A stretch of 64,000 nt of DNA from IMG/VR virus record IMGVR_UViG_3300026159_000398; one strand, written 5' to 3'. The notes under the pieces were generated by a model. The model saw only the letters and a list, made by a program, of their open reading frames with translations, had not been told where the DNA came from and did not search any database. Below, piece after piece: positions 9,442-54,172 of the stretch. The translations under genes were made by a program, and so were the position numbers. The first letter of the stretch is position 1, and every line of letters begins with the position of its first letter. This stretch comes from a virus (taxonomy: Duplodnaviria; Caudoviricetes).

Positions 9442-9965
9442 GAGTCTATTTTCTCCAATATAATTTTGAGTCCTTTGCCACGTAATTTATTAAAACTCGT
9501 TTTGAACATTTTTGCAATTTTAGCTTTATTTTGTGGTCCTTTAAAATGACGCAGCGCATCATAACCATAACTTTCAGAGAGTTTTATTTCATCATTAAAG
9601 TCAACTTGCATCGCCAAGAACTTAACGAACGAAGGGTCCATTTCTGACCATAAATTTAAGAAGTTTTGTTCTCGTTTTATGATGTTGTCTATCATGAGTT
9701 TGCCAATCATTATATAATGAATTGTAGTATCATCACAGACATAATAATCATTTGGCATTATAATGAGGCGATCATTTACTACAACATTACTATTCTTTTT
9801 AACAATCTCTTTTCCAAAACGATTGCGTGAAATAATGTTATTCGCCATCTTGAGCCATTCTGGTAACTCATCTTTTTGAGATGGCTTCACATCAAGAGTA
9901 CCTTTAGCTCTTTCTTCTTTGAATTTCTCAGGCATCCATTCAAGATAGGATTGAAATTTATTCAT
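9438..9965 (-). CDS. paralog 2 (diverged) of the RG..H..ES family
   Basis: MNKFQSYLEW; NDRLII..IHY..KLSESY. Confidence 0.5.
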   Translation of the reverse strand: MNKFQSYLEWMPEKFKEERAKGTLDVKPSQKDELPEWLKMANNIISRNRFGKEIVKKNSNVVVNDRLIIMPNDYYVCDDTTIHYIMIGKLMIDNIIKREQNFLNLWSEMDPSFVKFLAMQVDFNDEIKLSESYGYDALRHFKGPQNKAKIAKMFKTSFNKLRGKGLKIILEKIDS

Positions 9966-36801: not shown

Positions 36802-36957
36802 TCATTCACTGCTTTGTTTAGATTTTTTATGCGCATCATCCGGAATTTTTTCGTCCCATGATAAGCAACTATAAATTCCGTTTTCTGGCGCTTTACAGAA
36901 ATGACATTCTGCTTCAGAAAGAACGATCTGCTTACTTTTTTTACAGTAACCTATCAT
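36802..36957 (-). CDS. small Cys-containing protein (51 aa, below the ORF-track cutoff)
   Basis: MIGYCKKSKQIVLSEAECHFCK..; ATGA overlap with the Ro60 stop. Confidence 0.45.
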   Translation of the reverse strand: MIGYCKKSKQIVLSEAECHFCKAPENGIYSCLSWDEKIPDDAHKKSKQSSE

Positions 36958-38570
36958 ATCTTTCCAGCAACAAATTCACTTATTACTCGAGGCGCATTTG
37001 CATCAAATCCTACGATGTCCAACATTCCAGCATCATTTGGGTCAGCAATTGAGAATCCATTACTGTTCATACCCACAACGATCAGACGAGCATCATGAAC
37101 AAATTGGTTACGGTATTGTTTCAATGCTTGCACAGGTTGAATATTTCCAGCCCATGTTTCATTGTCTGTGTAGACGATGAAAGCATCAAACATATATTTC
37201 TTTTCTTTTGCCCAAATCATTGGCAATGCGCAATCTGTTCCTCCGAAATTGACACCATCAACTTTGTTCAAAATGGCTTCAAAACTCATGTTTGGAGTAA
37301 TGTCAAGTTTTTGGAATCTGTTGTTGAAAGCCATGATTGTGTATTCTTTTTCAACACGAGCAGTTACCATAGCCATCAATGCTGAACATTCAGCACATGT
37401 TAAAATTCCACTTGAAATTTCAGAACTCATAGAGCCTGATACGTCTATTCCAAGAAGCATTCTTTTTCCAGAAGGCTCAATTGTTTTGAAGCTCAAGTAA
37501 AACGCTTGTTCAAGAGCATCAACAATTTTTCGCACTGGAGTCCATGTCAAGTTGCCTCTGAAGCCACGACCCATGCTATAAGTTTTTTGAGCGAGAAGAA
37601 TATCCATAGGGTGAATACGGCTTTTCTTTAGATACGCTTCATCTGTGATTTTACTTACGACCATGCTCACGTATTCATTTTGGCCACTATCAAGAACTCC
37701 AATAGAAGTCAGACGATTCAAGTTGCGAATGAGAGCCTTCAGAGGAATATCTTTCAAAGCTGCTTTCCATACTGCGACATTGTTTTTTATCTCAGTTGGC
37801 CATGCATCTTGAGGAATCTTGTGCTCAGCGATCAATTCAATAGAACGCTTGACATCTTCTGCACGAAGAGACTTCAATTCTTCGGTTGCATAAACCAAAG
37901 GAAGATCTTCTGTAAACTCGTTCTTTACGGCATACTTAAACAACTGTGCGTGCACAGGAGTCATAGGTTTGACGTGTGCAGAACGCAGAATATCTTTGTG
38001 TGTCCATTGGTTCTCTGTTCCTTGAACAGTACGGCCTGCATATTTGATCATTTGATATTCAAGTTTTGTTGGGTCCATTGAATACCAGTTGCCAAATGCG
38101 TTACGAATGGCACGTCCCCAGCTTCTCAGATCGTCAATGTACTGGGCAAATGTAAACATGTGTGTTCCAGTACGGCAAATCTCAGGGAACATTCTCGATG
38201 CCGCATGTTTGATTATCTTGTCGTCTGTTTCTGAAAACAAAACTGCAAGCAGCATAATTGCTGGGTCATTCTTGTGTGCACGGCCTTCGACAGAAATATT
38301 GTACAGCATTGTAAGAACTTTTCCTGCATCTTCCTTAATGCAAGCAATGCTGTTCTTGATATTCTCTTTTGTCAGTTTGTTTTCACGTATGTAGTAAGTG
38401 CCGCCCTCACTTCCGAGAATCAGGAATCTTTCAAGACGTTTCCATTTGTCAAGTGCAAATGAGAATCCACCGGCTGAGTTGGCAACCATGTCTGCCTCAC
38501 GACCTGGTATAGGTTTTGATTGAGGAGTAACAGTTTTCTTTGCTTGACTGTTTGTGTAGTTGTGTGCCAT
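36954..38570 (-). CDS. rsr: Ro60/Rsr TROVE-domain RNA-binding protein
   Basis: NSAGGFSF..LERFLILGSEGGTYY, RTGTHMF, WGRAIR, SRIHP, DVSGSM vWA, GGTDCALP, TDNETW, GFDA. Confidence 0.95.
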   Translation of the reverse strand: MAHNYTNSQAKKTVTPQSKPIPGREADMVANSAGGFSFALDKWKRLERFLILGSEGGTYYIRENKLTKENIKNSIACIKEDAGKVLTMLYNISVEGRAHKNDPAIMLLAVLFSETDDKIIKHAASRMFPEICRTGTHMFTFAQYIDDLRSWGRAIRNAFGNWYSMDPTKLEYQMIKYAGRTVQGTENQWTHKDILRSAHVKPMTPVHAQLFKYAVKNEFTEDLPLVYATEELKSLRAEDVKRSIELIAEHKIPQDAWPTEIKNNVAVWKAALKDIPLKALIRNLNRLTSIGVLDSGQNEYVSMVVSKITDEAYLKKSRIHPMDILLAQKTYSMGRGFRGNLTWTPVRKIVDALEQAFYLSFKTIEPSGKRMLLGIDVSGSMSSEISSGILTCAECSALMAMVTARVEKEYTIMAFNNRFQKLDITPNMSFEAILNKVDGVNFGGTDCALPMIWAKEKKYMFDAFIVYTDNETWAGNIQPVQALKQYRNQFVHDARLIVVGMNSNGFSIADPNDAGMLDIVGFDANAPRVISEFVAGKI

Positions 38571-38600: not shown

Positions 38601-38638
38601 AAAAAAAACCACCCGTATCATCATTTGGTACGGGTGGT
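38601..38638 (-). terminator. intrinsic terminator in the Ro60 leader
   Basis: ACCACCCGUA / UACGGGUGGU stem + U8, ~30 nt upstream of the Ro60 ATG. Confidence 0.8.
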
Positions 38639-38705
38639 CTTGTGGTTGGTTCGTAGCTTCAAAGATTTTACCTCCTCGCTAGGAACCATCATACAATAGG
38701 TATCT

Positions 38706-38757
38706 GATAACGCTTATCCCCCGTACCTTTTAAATAAGGTCAAATTTTTGGAAAGCG
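38706..38757 (-). promoter_or_regulatory. loop-closed Ro-binding helix in the Ro60 leader
   Basis: CGCUUUCC-AAAAA-UUUGACCUU-loop-AAGGUACGGGGGAUAAGCG-UUAUC; same motif as the Y RNA at 38857. Confidence 0.65.
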
Positions 38758-38856
38758 ATATTGCTCTCTATTGAGAGCAGCGATTTTTAAAACCGTTAAG
38801 TCATAAAAATCTCCTGTAAAAATAAGTTCGTTGAGACTAGTAACTAATAAAAAATT

Positions 38857-38945
38857 GATCGGTCAAGTTGATGGATTGGGAGAGTGGCACATGGCCACGA
38901 TACACACCAAAAGTTTGTAGATAACCCAAGTCCTTCCGTACCGTC
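38857..38945 (-). ncRNA. Y RNA (Ro60 partner)
   Basis: 5' CGGUACGG..GGACUUGGGUUAUC pairs with 3' CCCAAUCC..CUUGACCG, matching the GGUCCGA/CUUGAC bulged helix of Y RNAs; own promoter at 38959 and a U-run after it; next to Ro60. Confidence 0.75.
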
Positions 38946-38974
38946 TAAACTATATAGAATTATATTACATGCGA

Positions 38975-50905: not shown

Positions 50906-50979
50906 AGACGCGGATGGGACTCGAACCCACACAAAACAGTTTTGCAGACTGACCCATTATTCCATTCTGGTACCGCGTC
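50906..50979 (-). tRNA. tRNA-Cys(GCA)
   Basis: Loop CUGCAAA; U73. Confidence 0.9.
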
Positions 50980-52705
50980 ATGAATAATCTACTTCACTGA
51001 ATTTGAATCCTTTGTTTTGAAATAGATCAATACAAATATCAACTAATTCAGCATTATATTTTGTGCCTCTGCCATCGCGTAATTCTTGAATAGCAATATC
51101 AATTCCGAGAGCCGGACGATATGGTCTATGAGAAGCGATAGCTTCAACAATATCTGCAATACAAATAATTTGTGCACCTAAAAGAATTTGATTTTCTTTT
51201 AATCCTTGTGGATATCCCGAGCCGTCTATTTTTTCATGGTGCTGATAAATCATTTCAGCAATTGGCCAAGGAAAATCAATCTTCTTTAAAATATCATAAC
51301 CATCTTTTGCGTGCATTTGAATCAATTGAAATTCAATGCTATTAAGAGATGATGGTTTTGCAAGCAATTCAGATGGAACTCCAAGTTTTCCAATATCATG
51401 AATACTGGCTGCGAGTTCTATTCCTTGAATATCTTCAAAATCAAGACCTTTGGCTTTGGCTATCTCTTTCGCAAGTTCTGCAACTCGCAATTGATGGCCT
51501 GCAGTATAAGAGTCTCGAGTATCAACAACCAATCCAAGAGCTTGAATAATACCACTCAACGTTCTTTGAAGTTTATATTCAGCTTCTTTTTTCGAAGTAA
51601 CATCAATCGAAAAATTCAATGTTGCTGGCTTGCCTTTCCATTCAACGCGTGAAGAAGTTATTTCAACCCATTTAATATTACCACGAGTATCTTGTACTCG
51701 AAAAGCGTAATTAGTTGGGACATCTTCTCCGTTTAATCTGCGTTGATATCGATCAAAAACAAAACCTAAATCTTCTTTATAAATAACTTCAGATACTTTT
51801 TTATTGGCAATAATTTCTTCTGGCGGACATTCCATCAATTTTCCGAATGCCGGATTTGCCAATGTAAAACCATCTTCTTGTGCAACAAAAATTGCTATTG
51901 GTGCGTCTTTAAAAAGTCGAACATAATCTTCTTCGGTCTTTTTCTTTTCTGTAATGTCAATACCAAACGACAACGTTCCAATAACTTTTTCAATAACCTT
52001 TACAAGAGTATTGCGCCAAAGAATGTATTTTTCTTGTCCGTCTTTGGTTAATATGGGATTTTCGAATTCGTATGGAATTCCCTTTTCTGTCAGTCTGTCA
52101 AACTGTTCCCATATTTCTGGATATTTTTCTCTCGGAACAAAAATTTCAAGAACTTTTTTATTCTTTACTTCATCAAACTTATACCCAGTAATTTCTTCAG
52201 CTGCTTTATTAAAAATAACGGCTCTTGCGTTATGATCAAGCATGAGAATCATTGTATTAGCGTGTTGAATTAAATCATCTGCAAATTCTTTTGCTAATCG
52301 CAGTTCTCTTTCTGTCTGCTTGGCGACTGTAACATCATGAATGATTCCTAACAAAAATTCTTCTTCAGCGATTTCAATTCGCGTCAAGAATATTTCTGTC
52401 TCAATCATCTTTCCTTCAAAATCAATACAAGTCCAATCATATTGTTGATTTTCAATTTGAGCAACTTGAATGATGCACTTACATTTATCTTCCGATAATT
52501 GTCCGTCTTTTTGATATTTTGGAGAAAGTTGTACAGGTGTTAAACCAATCAAATCCTCTCTTTGACATTTAAACATCTTTTCTGCTTGAGGATTGCAATC
52601 GACTATCATGTCACCCGCAAGAATTAAAATAGCGTTTGGTGTTTTATCAAACAGCAAACGATATCGTTGCTCTGATTCGAGCAACTTCTTTTTCAGCTGT
52701 TCCAT
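50978..52705 (-). CDS. PAS-PAS-PAS / HD-GYP cyclic-dinucleotide phosphodiesterase
   Basis: Three PAS repeats (N..AE..F/TG; DIT/DVT); YTAGHQ, IHDIGK, HHEKIDGSGYPQGL, RPYR. Confidence 0.92.
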   Translation of the reverse strand: MEQLKKKLLESEQRYRLLFDKTPNAILILAGDMIVDCNPQAEKMFKCQREDLIGLTPVQLSPKYQKDGQLSEDKCKCIIQVAQIENQQYDWTCIDFEGKMIETEIFLTRIEIAEEEFLLGIIHDVTVAKQTERELRLAKEFADDLIQHANTMILMLDHNARAVIFNKAAEEITGYKFDEVKNKKVLEIFVPREKYPEIWEQFDRLTEKGIPYEFENPILTKDGQEKYILWRNTLVKVIEKVIGTLSFGIDITEKKKTEEDYVRLFKDAPIAIFVAQEDGFTLANPAFGKLMECPPEEIIANKKVSEVIYKEDLGFVFDRYQRRLNGEDVPTNYAFRVQDTRGNIKWVEITSSRVEWKGKPATLNFSIDVTSKKEAEYKLQRTLSGIIQALGLVVDTRDSYTAGHQLRVAELAKEIAKAKGLDFEDIQGIELAASIHDIGKLGVPSELLAKPSSLNSIEFQLIQMHAKDGYDILKKIDFPWPIAEMIYQHHEKIDGSGYPQGLKENQILLGAQIICIADIVEAIASHRPYRPALGIDIAIQELRDGRGTKYNAELVDICIDLFQNKGFKFSEVDYS

Positions 52706-53272: not shown

Positions 53273-53352
53273 TAGCCCACCCCAGATTCGAACTGGGACG
53301 CCGAAGCACAGGGTCTAGACCTGCTAGATAGACCAGATTCTCTTAGTGGGCC
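53273..53352 (-). tRNA. tRNA-Leu(TAG)
   Basis: Loop UCUAGAC. Confidence 0.88.
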
Positions 53353-53676: not shown

Positions 53677-53681
53677 AAATG

Positions 53682-53752
53682 AGCATTCGACCAGAATTGA
53701 ACTGGCATCTCAGCGTTGGCAACACCGAATTCTACCATTAAACTACGAATGC
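53682..53752 (-). tRNA. tRNA-Gly(GCC)
   Basis: Loop UUGCCAA; U73. Confidence 0.9.
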
Positions 53753-53756
53753 AAAA

Positions 53757-53880
53757 CGTACTGGCGATAGGAATCGAACCTATACCGTCATCTTTTAAGG
53801 GTGATAATCAATCTCTGTCCGTACCAGTTTGGTCTAATGTGTAGAAATTGAGTTTTACGCTTTACCAAAAGCGCCAGTAC
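53757..53880 (-). ncRNA. tRNA / Y RNA hybrid (Ro-binding module at the anticodon position)
   Basis: Acceptor ACUGGCG/CGCCAGU, T arm AUAGG-UUCGAUU-CCUAU, internal UAGACCA-AAC-UGGUACGGA..AUUGA-UUAUC. Confidence 0.75.
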
Positions 53881-53884
53881 TATG

Positions 53885-53956
53885 AGCGGGAAAAGGGATT
53901 CGAACCCTCAACGATCAGTTTGGAAAACTGAGCTTCTACCATTGAATTATTCCCGC
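53885..53956 (-). tRNA. tRNA-Gly(TCC)
   Basis: Loop UUUCCAA; U73. Confidence 0.9.
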
Positions 53957-53958
53957 AT

Positions 53959-53990
53959 AATAAAAATGCCCCTCTTTGTGGGAGGGGCAT
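53959..53990 (-). terminator. attenuator terminator upstream of the tRNA array
   Basis: AUGCCCCUC-CCACAAA-GAGGGGCAU-UUUUAUU, 2 nt before tRNA-Gly. Confidence 0.8.
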
Positions 53991-54025
53991 CATTCCGATT
54001 TTAAAATTTAACACCAATTAAAACA

Positions 54026-54135: not shown

Positions 54136-54144
54136 ATTATATTA
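54136..54144 (-). promoter_or_regulatory. recurrent phage promoter motif (T)AATATAAT (example copy)
   Basis: Same motif just upstream of genes or RNAs at ~6997, 10880(+), 18831, 18881(+), 18939(+), 25471, 27538, 31451, 36791, 38959, 42841, 44402, 45357, 46698, 49268, 52736, 57255, 59255, 59477. Confidence 0.75.
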
Positions 54145-54172
54145 TTGCACTTTGAAATTTATTTATAAAAAT

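What the first reader, a model, noticed from the sequence alone, without database searches (positions are those of the whole stretch)
53757..53880. Y RNA module grafted into a normal-topology tRNA (circular permutation of the YrlA architecture)
Seen: between two tRNA-Gly genes lies an RNA with open acceptor ends (GUACUGGCG/CGCCAGUAC), a D-like arm (CUUU-UGGU-AAAG) and a canonical T arm. In place of the anticodon arm it has UCAAU..UAGACCA-AAC-UGGU-A-CGGA..AUUGA-UUAUC. The + strand signature GATAA-N10/11-CCGTACC occurs here and at both Ro60-proximal elements, 15 kb away. Established: YrlA RNAs have the Ro stem at the open ends, the T arm before the D arm, and a loop-closed acceptor. Here the connectivity is reversed. 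Inference: this Y RNA could be processed like a tRNA (RNase P, CCA addition, possibly charging) and is co-regulated by the tRNA attenuator; it may be an evolutionary intermediate between tRNA and YrlA.
Basis: partly seen in the sequence, partly recalled or inferred. Interest (0 to 1): 0.85.

Follow-up and report, generated by a model that had tools for sequence, protein, structure and literature searches.

The report
tRNA-shaped Y RNA in phage tRNA array
Between two glycine tRNA genes, a giant phage that encodes the RNA-surveillance protein Ro60 carries a conserved 120-base RNA with tRNA ends and elbow plus an extra arm that copies the Ro60 docking helix of Y RNAs; it is probably a Ro60 partner RNA cut out by the tRNA-processing enzymes, a wiring I found in no paper.

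Summary
On the minus strand at 53878-53759 lies an RNA with a 7-bp open acceptor stem, a short D hairpin, a canonical T arm and a 44-nt arm. The tip of that arm is the Y-RNA Ro60 helix, closed by a triloop. The motif GGUACGG-N10/11-UUAUC occurs three times in the window against 0 expected.

I found 18 such tRNA/Y chimeras in eight contigs of related Ro60 phages. Most sit beside Ro60 or are packed into tRNA arrays. In 11 of them 96% of pair cells form and 20 of 30 pairs show compensatory changes. A syntenic ortholog differs by three compensatory acceptor pairs and otherwise only at unpaired positions.

Connectivity is that of a tRNA and is circularly permuted relative to YrlA: Rfam YrlA scores 13 bits against a threshold of 69.

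Its "anticodon" differs between orthologs (UAA versus GAA), so decoding is unlikely.

Ro60 binding, tRNA-type processing and charging are inferred, not shown. The "evolutionary intermediate" idea is unsupported.

I found no published description. Earlier unchecked notes of this scan report the same layout in other Ro60-encoding viruses.

The parts
53872..53878 (-). Acceptor stem, 5' strand ACUGGCG. Two more bases upstream (53880-53879, GU) could also pair with bases 53759-53758.
   Evidence: Pairs 7/7 with 53766-53760. Three of the seven pairs change on both sides in the ortholog L203. The acceptor covaries at 7 of 7 pairs across the family.
53860..53871 (-). Short D-like hairpin CUUU-UGGU-AAAG. 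It has the GG of a D loop but no U8/A9 linker.
   Evidence: It is 100% conserved in L203. It is degenerate compared with the family consensus UAGCUCAGUUGGUAGAGC.
53852..53859 (-). A-rich linker CGUAAAAC between the D hairpin and the Y arm.
   Evidence: The family consensus has UAAAA at this place.
53808..53851 (-). Y arm. It has a 9-bp basal stem (53851-53843 with 53816-53808) and an asymmetric internal loop. The distal helix UUAGACCA (53837-53830) pairs with UGGUACGG (53826-53819), with A53822 bulged, and is capped by the triloop AAC (53829-53827).
   Evidence: MFE fold. Model R1 scores it 50.5 bits, E = 4e-9. The basal stem covaries at 7 of 8 pairs and the distal helix is 94% paired. The strands match GGUCCGA/UUGACC of Y RNAs (PMC4201824) and the phage's own open-ended Y RNA.
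53803..53807 (-). UUAUC motif at the 3' base of the Y arm. The same motif follows the 5' strand of the open-ended Y RNAs.
   Evidence: The columns are invariant or nearly invariant in A1 and A2.
53788..53804 (-). Anticodon-like hairpin UCACC-CUUAAAA-GAUGA, with 4 of 5 pairs formed and a C.A mismatch. The loop has U at position 2 and A at position 6, and the 'anticodon' reads UAA.
   Evidence: The Rfam tRNA alignment uses it. The ortholog has CUGAAAC (GAA) in the same stem. Thirteen of 15 long-type family members have such a loop.
53784..53787 (-). Variable-loop equivalent CGGU.
   Evidence: The family consensus at this place is RGGUC.
53767..53783 (-). Canonical T arm AUAGG-UUCGAUU-CCUAU.
   Evidence: The T stem is 100% paired, with 3 covarying pairs.
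53759..53766 (-). Acceptor stem 3' strand CGCCAGU plus the discriminator A (53759). No CCA is encoded; the next bases are CGUUUU.
53884..53956 (-). Upstream neighbour tRNA-Gly(UCC), 5 nt from the chimera's first acceptor base.
   Evidence: The order Gly(UCC) - chimera - Gly(GCC) is the same in L203.
53681..53752 (-). Downstream neighbour tRNA-Gly(GCC), 6 nt after the discriminator.
36954..38570 (-). Phage Ro60 gene (TROVE and Ro60-vWA domains), the presumed protein partner, 15 kb away on the same strand.
   Evidence: It is 41% identical to the Ro-like proteins of actinophages.
38856..38948 (-). Open-ended Y RNA upstream of Ro60. It carries the same two strands (CGGUACGGA ... UUGACCG) at its termini.
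   Evidence: It hits the Rfam nematode Y-RNA homologue family RF01656 at 26.7 bits, E = 0.003.
38601..38757 (-). Ro60 leader element with the third copy of the GGUACGG...UUAUC motif, ending in a terminator.
   Evidence: Model R1 gives a weak hit of 27 bits. Earlier scan notes e1-5511550 and e1-5511563 describe it.

Best explanation
The element is a Y RNA built on a tRNA frame: a non-decoding, tRNA-shaped partner RNA for the phage's own Ro60.

Proposed course of events:
1. It is transcribed as part of the tRNA polycistron. This is inferred from the 5-6 nt spacers and the lack of a promoter of its own.
2. It is released by the enzymes that release its neighbours: RNase P at A53878, then 3' trimming and CCA addition after A53759. 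This is inferred from the 7-bp acceptor stacked on a canonical 5-bp T arm.
3. The tRNA elbow gives it a stable L-shaped body.
4. The extra arm presents the bulged helix UGGU(A)CGG/UUAGACCA, the phage's version of the GGUCCGA/UUGACC helix by which Ro60 grips Y RNAs. This is inferred from the shared motif and from linkage to Ro60 genes.

Functionally it would then act like bacterial YrlA, with a Ro60-binding module joined to a tRNA-like effector module. The connectivity is circularly permuted: the acceptor is open and the Ro helix is closed. The anticodon-like hairpin beside the Y arm is conserved in shape but not in 'anticodon'. It is therefore more likely a recognition or mimicry feature than a decoder.
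For: Shown here:
- All helices are present, and the free-energy fold recovers them.
- The motif occurs 3 times against 0 expected and is shared with the Ro60-proximal RNAs.
- Ro60 is encoded in the window.
- Eighteen chimeras of the same design lie in eight contigs of related phages (Ro60 57-67% identical where that gene is on the contig). They sit within about 2.5 kb of Ro60 in L116, L118, L119, L201 and L202 and/or abut tRNA genes by 2-7 nt.
- A covariance model built without the window's copy scores it 50.5 bits, E = 4e-9, above every ordinary tRNA.
- In 11 members 96% of pair cells are paired, 20 of 30 pairs have double changes, and 0 of 500 shuffles reach this. RNAalifold finds the same helices on its own.
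- The syntenic ortholog L203 is 93% identical. It has three compensatory acceptor pairs, and its other five changes lie in unpaired positions (the cap of the Ro helix, the arm's internal loop and the anticodon-like loop).
- The open-ended Y RNA with the same strands hits the Rfam sbRNA family (nematode Y-RNA homologue; that reading is from my own knowledge).
- The phage encodes a nucleotidyltransferase of the CCA-adding family.

From the literature:
- Ro60 mainly contacts the 5' strand GGUCCGA.
- YrlA couples a Ro60 module to a tRNA-like domain.
- M. smegmatis YrlA is cut by RNase P and receives CCA (PMC4201824; bioRxiv 10.1101/312249).
Against:
- The motif is GGUACGG, not GGUCCGA or GNCGAA. 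The helix is capped only 4 bp beyond the bulge, so Ro60 binding to a closed helix is unproven.
- In this phage the element is 15 kb from Ro60.
- Its D region is degenerate, with no U8/A9 and a 4-nt D loop, which could impair the tRNA fold.
- Two extra base pairs beyond the acceptor (GU/AC) could shift or hinder RNase P cleavage.
- The purpose of the retained anticodon-like arm is unexplained.
Confidence: 0.6

Rival explanations
1. It is a bait or decoy. The chimeras display anticodon-loop look-alikes of different tRNAs on a body that carries Ro60, and through it perhaps a host exonuclease such as PNPase. They would then intercept, sense or counter host tRNA-targeting nucleases or tRNA damage during infection. 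This refines the best explanation rather than excluding it.
For: - Thirteen of 15 long-type members keep a 7-nt loop with U at position 2 and A at position 6, but with different triplets: UAA, GAA, UAU, UGU, UGG, GCA, CAU, GCU, GAU and GCC.
- The loop triplet changes between orthologs while the stems stay identical.
- The chimeras sit in large phage tRNA arrays together with a tmRNA gene.
- Bacterial Ro60/YrlA genes lie in an RNA-repair operon that is regulated by damaged tRNAs (PMC7790460).
Against: - This is purely inferential.
- Three short-type members lack the hairpin altogether.
- No RtcB is found in the 83%-complete genome.
- The stems of several hairpins are weak, with only 2-4 of 5 pairs formed.
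Confidence: 0.15
2. It is a working tRNA with an extra arm. It would be charged and used in translation, and Ro60 binding to the arm would regulate or protect it.
For: - The frame has an open 7-bp acceptor, a T arm, discriminator A73 and an anticodon-like 7-nt loop.
- Four relatives pass the Rfam tRNA gathering score over their full length, at 44-52 bits.
- In L202 the chimera with a perfect GAA arm lies in a locus where ARAGORN finds no ordinary tRNA-Phe.
Against: - The orthologs read UAA versus GAA on an otherwise identical body.
- The window's copy has a type-I body, although bacterial tRNA-Leu is type II. Ordinary tRNA-Leu(UAA) and tRNA-Phe(GAA) genes are present.
- The anticodon stem has a conserved C.A mismatch and the D region is degenerate.
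- To my knowledge no tRNA class carries a 44-nt arm between the D and anticodon stems.
- The short-type members have no anticodon arm at all.
Confidence: 0.08
3. The arm is not a Ro60 site. It binds another factor, or acts in cis on processing or stability of the tRNA transcript. Its likeness to Y RNA would then reflect a shared phage motif with some other role.
For: - The motif departs from the published consensus (GGUACGG versus GGUCCGA or GNCGAA).
- Rfam Y-RNA-type hits are below threshold, and exist only for the open-ended copies.
- This copy is far from Ro60.
Against: - Every contig long enough to judge carries Ro60 together with chimeras.
- The same two strands form the terminal helix of RNAs placed directly in front of Ro60.
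- Both strands, the bulge position and the asymmetric internal loop match the Y-RNA design.
Confidence: 0.1
4. The arm is an intron or a selfish insertion in a tRNA gene. It would either be spliced out to give a normal tRNA, or be a disrupted pseudogene.
For: - The insert lies in the anticodon-arm region.
- In some relatives a 5-bp stem is formed by the sequences flanking the arm: GUAGU/ACUAC in L116, and GCAGU/ACUGU in L119. Removing the arm would leave a tRNA-like molecule.
Against: - A 44-nt hairpin cannot be a group I or group II intron.
- The bulge-helix-bulge endonuclease route is archaeal and eukaryotic, whereas the phage carries a tmRNA gene, a bacterial trait.
- Compensatory changes in the arm's basal stem (7 of 8 pairs) and strict conservation of its distal helix show selection on the arm itself.
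- Removing the arm from the window's copy leaves a defective tRNA.
- The pattern of substitutions in the ortholog is that of a functional RNA.
Confidence: 0.04

Closest known systems
YrlA (Y RNA-like A; Rfam RF02553), the tRNA-like Y RNA bound by bacterial and mycobacteriophage Ro60/Rsr (Chen et al. 2014, PMC4201824; Wang et al. 2018, bioRxiv 10.1101/312249)
   Same: - It has two modules: a Ro60-type helix and a tRNA-like body with D and T arms and an acceptor-like stem.
- The Ro module projects from the anticodon-stem position.
- It is linked to a Ro60 gene.
- A variable-region element lies between the Ro-side stem and the T arm.
   Different: - The connectivity is circularly permuted. In YrlA the termini lie in the Ro helix, the acceptor-like stem is closed, and the T arm precedes the D arm. 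Here the termini lie in the acceptor, the Ro helix is closed by a triloop, and the D arm precedes the T arm.
- The Rfam YrlA model scores 13.1 bits against a threshold of 69. A mycobacteriophage YrlA core scores 36 bits.
- The element is embedded in a tRNA array rather than placed next to Ro60.
- It keeps an anticodon-like loop.
Deinococcus radiodurans Yrn1 and M. smegmatis YrlA after RNase P cleavage (PMC4201824)
   Same: - Yrn1 has its D-like and T-like arms in tRNA order.
- M. smegmatis YrlA acquires an open, CCA-tailed acceptor end. This shows that a Y RNA with a free acceptor end can exist.
   Different: - In Yrn1 the Ro helix takes the acceptor position and is formed by the termini.
- Cleaved M. 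smegmatis YrlA is a two-piece RNA that still has open Ro-helix ends.
- Neither has a closed Ro helix inside a one-piece tRNA frame.
Metazoan Y RNAs and nematode sbRNAs (Rfam RF00019, RF01656)
   Same: The bulged helix has the 5' strand GGU-N-CGR and the 3' strand UUGACC, and the 5' strand is followed by GUUAUC. The phage's open-ended copy hits RF01656.
   Different: - In the finding the helix is capped by a loop instead of being formed by the RNA's ends.
- A replaces the C of GGUCCGA.
- All scores are below the gathering thresholds.
Engineered 'tRNA scaffold' RNAs (Ponchon and Dardel) and viral tRNA-linked small RNAs (MHV68 tRNA-miRNA units), both from my own knowledge and not checked here
   Same: A foreign functional hairpin is carried on a tRNA body, so that host tRNA enzymes process and stabilise it.
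   Different: - The scaffold RNAs are man-made, with the insert replacing the anticodon loop.
- In MHV68 the hairpins follow the tRNA-like unit rather than lying inside it.
- Neither involves Ro60.
Stable non-tRNA RNAs inside the phage T4 tRNA cluster (species 1 and 2 RNAs), and circularly permuted tmRNA and tRNA genes (from my own knowledge, not checked here)
   Same: - Odd small RNAs can be co-transcribed and co-processed with phage tRNAs.
- There is precedent for circular permutation within families of tRNA-like RNAs.
   Different: - No Y module is known in the T4 RNAs.
- The permuted tmRNAs and tRNAs keep their original function.

Membership tests
YrlA (Rfam RF02553) | The covariance-model score reaches the gathering threshold of 69 bits. 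| tested here: not met
   The best overlap is 13.1 bits, E = 9.2, and it spans the chimera's T arm plus the next tRNA's D arm. None of the relatives reaches the threshold.
YrlA (Rfam RF02553) | Arm order is T arm, then a closed acceptor-like hairpin, then D arm, all lying between termini that carry the Ro60 motif. | tested here: not met
   The order here is open acceptor, D arm, closed Ro helix, T arm, acceptor. A mycobacteriophage control shows the YrlA order.
YrlA (Rfam RF02553) | A tRNA-like elbow: a D loop with GG and a T loop reading UUCRA, on conserved stems. | tested here: met
   The D loop is UGGU and the T loop is UUCGAUU. The family consensus is UAGCUCAGUUGGUAGAGC ... GGUUCGAGUCC.
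YrlA (Rfam RF02553) | Encoded within about 4 kb of Ro60 on the same strand. | tested here: not met
   The window's copy is on the same strand but 15 kb away. Relatives in L116, L118, L119, L201 and L202 do meet this feature.
YrlA / Y RNA in general | Bound by Ro60. | not testable with these tools
Y RNA (metazoan Y, sbRNA, bacterial Y) | A conserved bulged helix with the Ro60-contacted 5' strand (GGUCCGA, or GNCGAAN0-1G) and the 3' strand UUGACC. | tested here: inconclusive
   - The window has UGGUACGGA paired with UUAGACCA, with a bulged A.
- The family consensus is GGUACGR/UUGACC.
- This differs from GGUCCGA by one substitution and does not fit GNCGAA exactly.
Y RNA (metazoan Y, sbRNA, bacterial Y) | The helix is formed by the 5' and 3' ends of the RNA. 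| tested here: not met
   The helix is closed by the triloop AAC (53829-53827). In relatives it is closed by GAAA, UUUA and similar loops.
tRNA (Rfam RF00005) | Full-length cloverleaf scoring at least 29 bits. | tested here: not met
   Only a partial alignment is found (53759-53828, 27.6 bits), and it uses an internal pseudo-acceptor. ARAGORN does not call it. Four relatives do pass over their full length at 44-52 bits.
tRNA (Rfam RF00005) | [quoted passage not shown] | tested here: met
tRNA (Rfam RF00005) | A decoding anticodon arm whose identity is conserved. | tested here: not met
   The hairpin has a C.A mismatch, and the triplet is UAA here but GAA in the ortholog.
tRNA intron (group I, or bulge-helix-bulge) | A self-splicing core of about 200 nt or more, or a BHB motif together with an archaeal or eukaryotic host. 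| tested here: not met
   The insert is a 44-nt hairpin under selection of its own. The phage carries a tmRNA gene, which points to a bacterial host. Whether splicing occurs could not be tested, because no RNA reads were available.

The most novel reading that the evidence does not exclude
These phages make a panel of CCA-tailed, possibly chargeable tRNA look-alikes. Each displays a different anticodon loop and each carries Ro60 on an extra arm. Ro60, and any exonuclease it recruits, would then be delivered to whatever recognises that tRNA: host anticodon nucleases, tRNA-modifying toxins, synthetases, EF-Tu or the ribosome. That would be an anticodon-addressed RNA-surveillance or counter-defence system.
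Probability: 0.12. Interest if true: 0.9.

Novelty: new variant of a known kind. Interest (0 to 1): 0.7.

Why it matters
Bacterial Y RNAs were shown to mimic tRNA, but what their tRNA-like domain does, and how Y RNAs arose, remains open. The current proposal is an origin from dimeric tRNA transcripts (bioRxiv 10.1101/312249).

This finding bears on both questions:
- A conserved family carries the same Ro60-type helix on a one-piece RNA with real tRNA ends, inside tRNA operons. The two modules can therefore be joined in more than one way.
- Y RNAs could be made by the tRNA-processing pathway, and a free acceptor end is compatible with the design.
- The finding supplies concrete, short constructs for testing Ro60 binding to a closed helix, RNase P and CCA processing, and charging.

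There is also a practical point. Annotation tools either skip these genes or miscall part of them as a tRNA: ARAGORN called the 3' part of the ortholog tRNA-Phe.

Tried and rejected
- The search for related loci with Ro60 in viral contigs found no relative.
- Two pattern scans of the viral contigs returned only chance matches, apart from the window's own record and the L116 phage.
- A strict D-arm plus Y-helix pattern found two contigs in the metagenome collection: a new 2.1-kb contig and one I already held. It found none in 185,579 prokaryote genomes. The pattern is specific to this clade's motif, so the blank says little about other lineages.
- Rfam at gathering thresholds names nothing at the site.
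- The contig for Ro60 homologue P0004 had no DNA on hand.
- I first considered a D stem GCUU/AAGC that uses G53872, as the model alignment suggested. I rejected it because that base covaries with the acceptor's 3' strand in the ortholog.
- I weighed a 'flanking anticodon stem' for the window's copy. It does not form here, although it does in L116_a, L118_c and L119_b.
- My first tRNA-frame script used a wrong T-loop length and found nothing. I corrected it.
- No RtcB is found in the genome.

Full report
**Setting.** The window is the reverse complement of the first 63.4 kb of a 205-kb IMG/VR phage record estimated to be 83% complete. On the minus strand it carries 27 tRNA genes and a tmRNA gene. 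It also carries a Ro60 gene at 36954-38570 with TROVE and Ro60-vWA domains, which is 41% identical to the Ro-like proteins of actinophages. The finding lies between tRNA-Gly(UCC) (53884-53956) and tRNA-Gly(GCC) (53681-53752).

**Checking the observation.** Read on the minus strand, the RNA has these parts:
- acceptor 5' strand ACUGGCG (53878-53872), with two further bases GU that could pair upstream;
- a short hairpin CUUU-UGGU-AAAG;
- a linker CGUAAAAC;
- a 44-nt arm;
- UUAUC;
- a hairpin UCACC-CUUAAAA-GAUGA;
- CGGU;
- a canonical T arm AUAGG-UUCGAUU-CCUAU;
- acceptor 3' strand CGCCAGU and discriminator A.

No CCA is encoded. The 44-nt arm has a 9-bp basal stem, an asymmetric internal loop and a distal helix UUAGACCA/UGGU(A)CGG capped by AAC.

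RNAfold recovers all five helices without constraints, at -33.6 kcal/mol and z = -3.15. The motif GGUACGG-N10/11-UUAUC occurs three times in the window against 0 expected. The other two copies lie directly upstream of Ro60. One belongs to an open-ended RNA at 38856-38948 whose two ends form the same helix. That RNA hits the Rfam family of nematode sbRNAs, which are Y-RNA homologues, at 26.7 bits and E = 0.003. The Rfam tRNA model aligns to that hairpin in a sub-threshold partial hit of 27.6 bits.

**Relatives.** Ro60 homologues of 57-86% identity exist in metagenome assemblies. I fetched five of their contigs, and four of those hold chimeras. Three further contigs also hold them:
- a contig found through the neighbouring PAS-HD gene;
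- a contig found by a pattern scan of metagenomes;
- the window's own record.

Motif and tRNA-frame scans and a covariance model found 18 RNAs of the same design in eight contigs. The shared design is:
- a 7-bp open acceptor;
- usually a textbook D arm, UAGCUCAGUUGGUAGAGC;
- an A-rich linker;
- the arm, with the distal helix UUGACC-loop-GGUACGR;
- UUAUC;
- a canonical T arm.

They lie within about 2.5 kb of Ro60 in L116, L118, L119, L201 and L202, often in tandem. Several are packed 2-7 nt from ordinary tRNA genes.

Three are short, about 100 nt, with the arm simply replacing the anticodon arm. Fifteen are long, 120-133 nt. Thirteen of the long ones keep a 7-nt loop with U at position 2 and A at position 6, followed by a 5-nt strand and an RGGUC-type variable loop. 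The triplets differ: UAA, GAA, UAU, UGU, UGG, GCA, CAU, GCU, GAU and GCC. In three members (L116_a, L118_c and L119_b) the sequences flanking the arm form a perfect 5-bp stem instead.

**Is the structure under selection?** The model was built from ten relatives and did not include the window's copy. It scores that copy 50.5 bits, E = 4e-9, above all ordinary tRNAs, whose maximum is 46.5 bits. The results on the 11 best members are:

| Measure | Result |
|---|---|
| Pair cells forming standard pairs | 96% |
| Same with partners slid by one to three columns | 37-50% |
| Pairs with changes on both sides | 20 of 30 |
| Shuffles reaching these values | 0 of 500 |
| Acceptor stem, covarying pairs | 7 of 7 |
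| Basal stem of the arm, covarying pairs | 7 of 8 |
| T stem, covarying pairs | 3 of 5 |
| Distal helix | nearly invariant, 94% paired |

The acceptor pairing of most members was a selection criterion of my scan, and the alignment was fitted to the model. RNAalifold nevertheless predicts the same helices independently.

The cleanest test is the syntenic ortholog L203:1555-1674, which has the same order Gly(UCC) - chimera - Gly(GCC). Its neighbouring PAS-HD protein is 84% identical. Over the 120 nt there are 11 differences:
- Six form three compensatory acceptor pairs: A-U to G-C, G-C to A-U, and G-C to A-U.
- The other five lie in unpaired positions: the cap of the Ro helix, the arm's internal loop and the anticodon-like loop.

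This result also fixes the acceptor register and rules out a D stem that uses G53872.

**What it is.** The arm carries both strands, the bulge position, the asymmetric internal loop and the trailing UUAUC of this phage clade's open-ended Y RNAs. The two strands are joined at the end where those RNAs have their termini. GGUACGR differs by one base from GGUCCGA, the strand contacted by Xenopus Ro60 (PMC4201824). Together with the linkage to Ro60 genes, this makes a Ro60 docking arm the best reading, but binding is inferred and not shown.

The frame is that of a tRNA. [quoted passage not shown] The 5-6 nt spacers, and the absence of a promoter-like site on this strand between 54141 and 52735, imply co-transcription with the neighbouring tRNAs from the promoter and terminator-like leader upstream of 53957. 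The phage also encodes a 256-aa nucleotidyltransferase of the CCA-adding/PcnB family.

A decoding role is unlikely for four reasons:
- The 'anticodon' differs between orthologs on an identical body.
- The stem has a conserved C.A mismatch.
- The D region lacks U8/A9.
- Ordinary tRNA-Leu(UAA) and tRNA-Phe(GAA) genes are present.

An intron is also unlikely. The arm is too small for a self-splicing intron, and the host is bacterial, as the phage's tmRNA gene indicates. The arm is itself under structural selection.

**Comparison with known families.** YrlA has the same two modules. However, its termini lie in the Ro helix, its acceptor-like stem is closed and its T arm precedes its D arm (PMC4201824; bioRxiv 10.1101/312249). 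The Rfam YrlA model gives 13 bits here against a threshold of 69. It finds the expected T - closed hairpin - D core in a mycobacteriophage control at 36 bits. The finding therefore works like YrlA but fails YrlA's defining connectivity: it is a circular permutation.

D. radiodurans Yrn1 has tRNA arm order but places the Ro helix at the acceptor position. M. smegmatis YrlA gains an open CCA end only after RNase P cleavage, and it remains open at the Ro helix (PMC4201824).

Three full-text searches and reading of five papers found no description of a closed Ro helix inside a one-piece tRNA frame. The 2020 Annual Review on bacterial Ro60 could not be read.

Earlier notes of this scan, which are unchecked, report the same layout in other Ro60-encoding viruses: giant viruses, a crAss-like phage, and lake and marine phages. 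I saw these notes only after reaching my reading, and I did not test them.

**Verdict.** The architectural interpretation is supported, with the correction that an anticodon-like arm is retained. The functional claims are plausible inferences, and the 'evolutionary intermediate' claim is not supported.

My estimates:

| Claim | Probability |
|---|---|
| Conserved structured RNA | about 0.97 |
| tRNA frame carrying a Y-type helix | about 0.9 |
| Binds Ro60 | about 0.7 |
| Released by tRNA processing | about 0.75 |
| Aminoacylated | about 0.2 |

Noticed in passing
window 53273-53352 (-); also L118 8358-8430: ARAGORN calls a tRNA with anticodon CUA (labelled 'tRNA-Pyl'), that is, an amber-suppressor-type tRNA, in the array of this phage and of a relative. 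This could mean that TAG is recoded or suppressed late in infection.
   Followed up: no
G000:C1 about 177.9-178.6 kb (L209:1414-2184, outside the window): The phage encodes a 256-aa class II nucleotidyltransferase head-domain protein. Its best matches are CCA tRNA nucleotidyltransferase and PcnB, below the curated cut-offs. No RtcB is found in the record.
   Followed up: partly
L203 1605-1675 (ortholog of window 53759-53828): ARAGORN miscalls the 3' two-thirds of the chimera as 'tRNA-Phe(gaa)', using the Ro-helix strand ACUGGUA as a false acceptor. Rfam does the same with the window's copy at 27.6 bits. Automatic annotation will mislabel these genes.
   Followed up: yes
L118 9200-10000; L119 9230-10000; L202 7600-10000: Related phages carry up to five open-ended Y-like RNAs with the GGUACGG...UUAUC motif, interleaved with chimeras in the 0.8-2.4 kb in front of Ro60. 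One of them (L118, about 9790-9900) has an internal T arm, as YrlB does.
   Followed up: partly
L118 12115-12270: About 155 nt between tRNA-Gln and a chimera ends in a T-arm-like UUAGGUUCAAUUCCUAA. No tool called it as a tRNA, and it may be another odd tRNA-like RNA.
   Followed up: no
window 50978-52705 (-); L201 6075-7475; L203 2798-4510: A PAS-PAS-HD(HD-GYP-type) signalling protein is conserved next to the tRNA arrays or Ro60 in this phage clade. Its nearest cellular relatives are about 30-40% identical and come from Smithella/Syntrophaceae-like bacteria, a possible hint to the host.
   Followed up: no
window 53965-53991 (-) and 54141-54169 (-): A promoter-like site and a strong terminator-like hairpin with a U run lie directly upstream of the tRNA block that contains the chimera. 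This is the 'attenuator' of another finding. The chimera has no promoter-like site of its own.
   Followed up: partly
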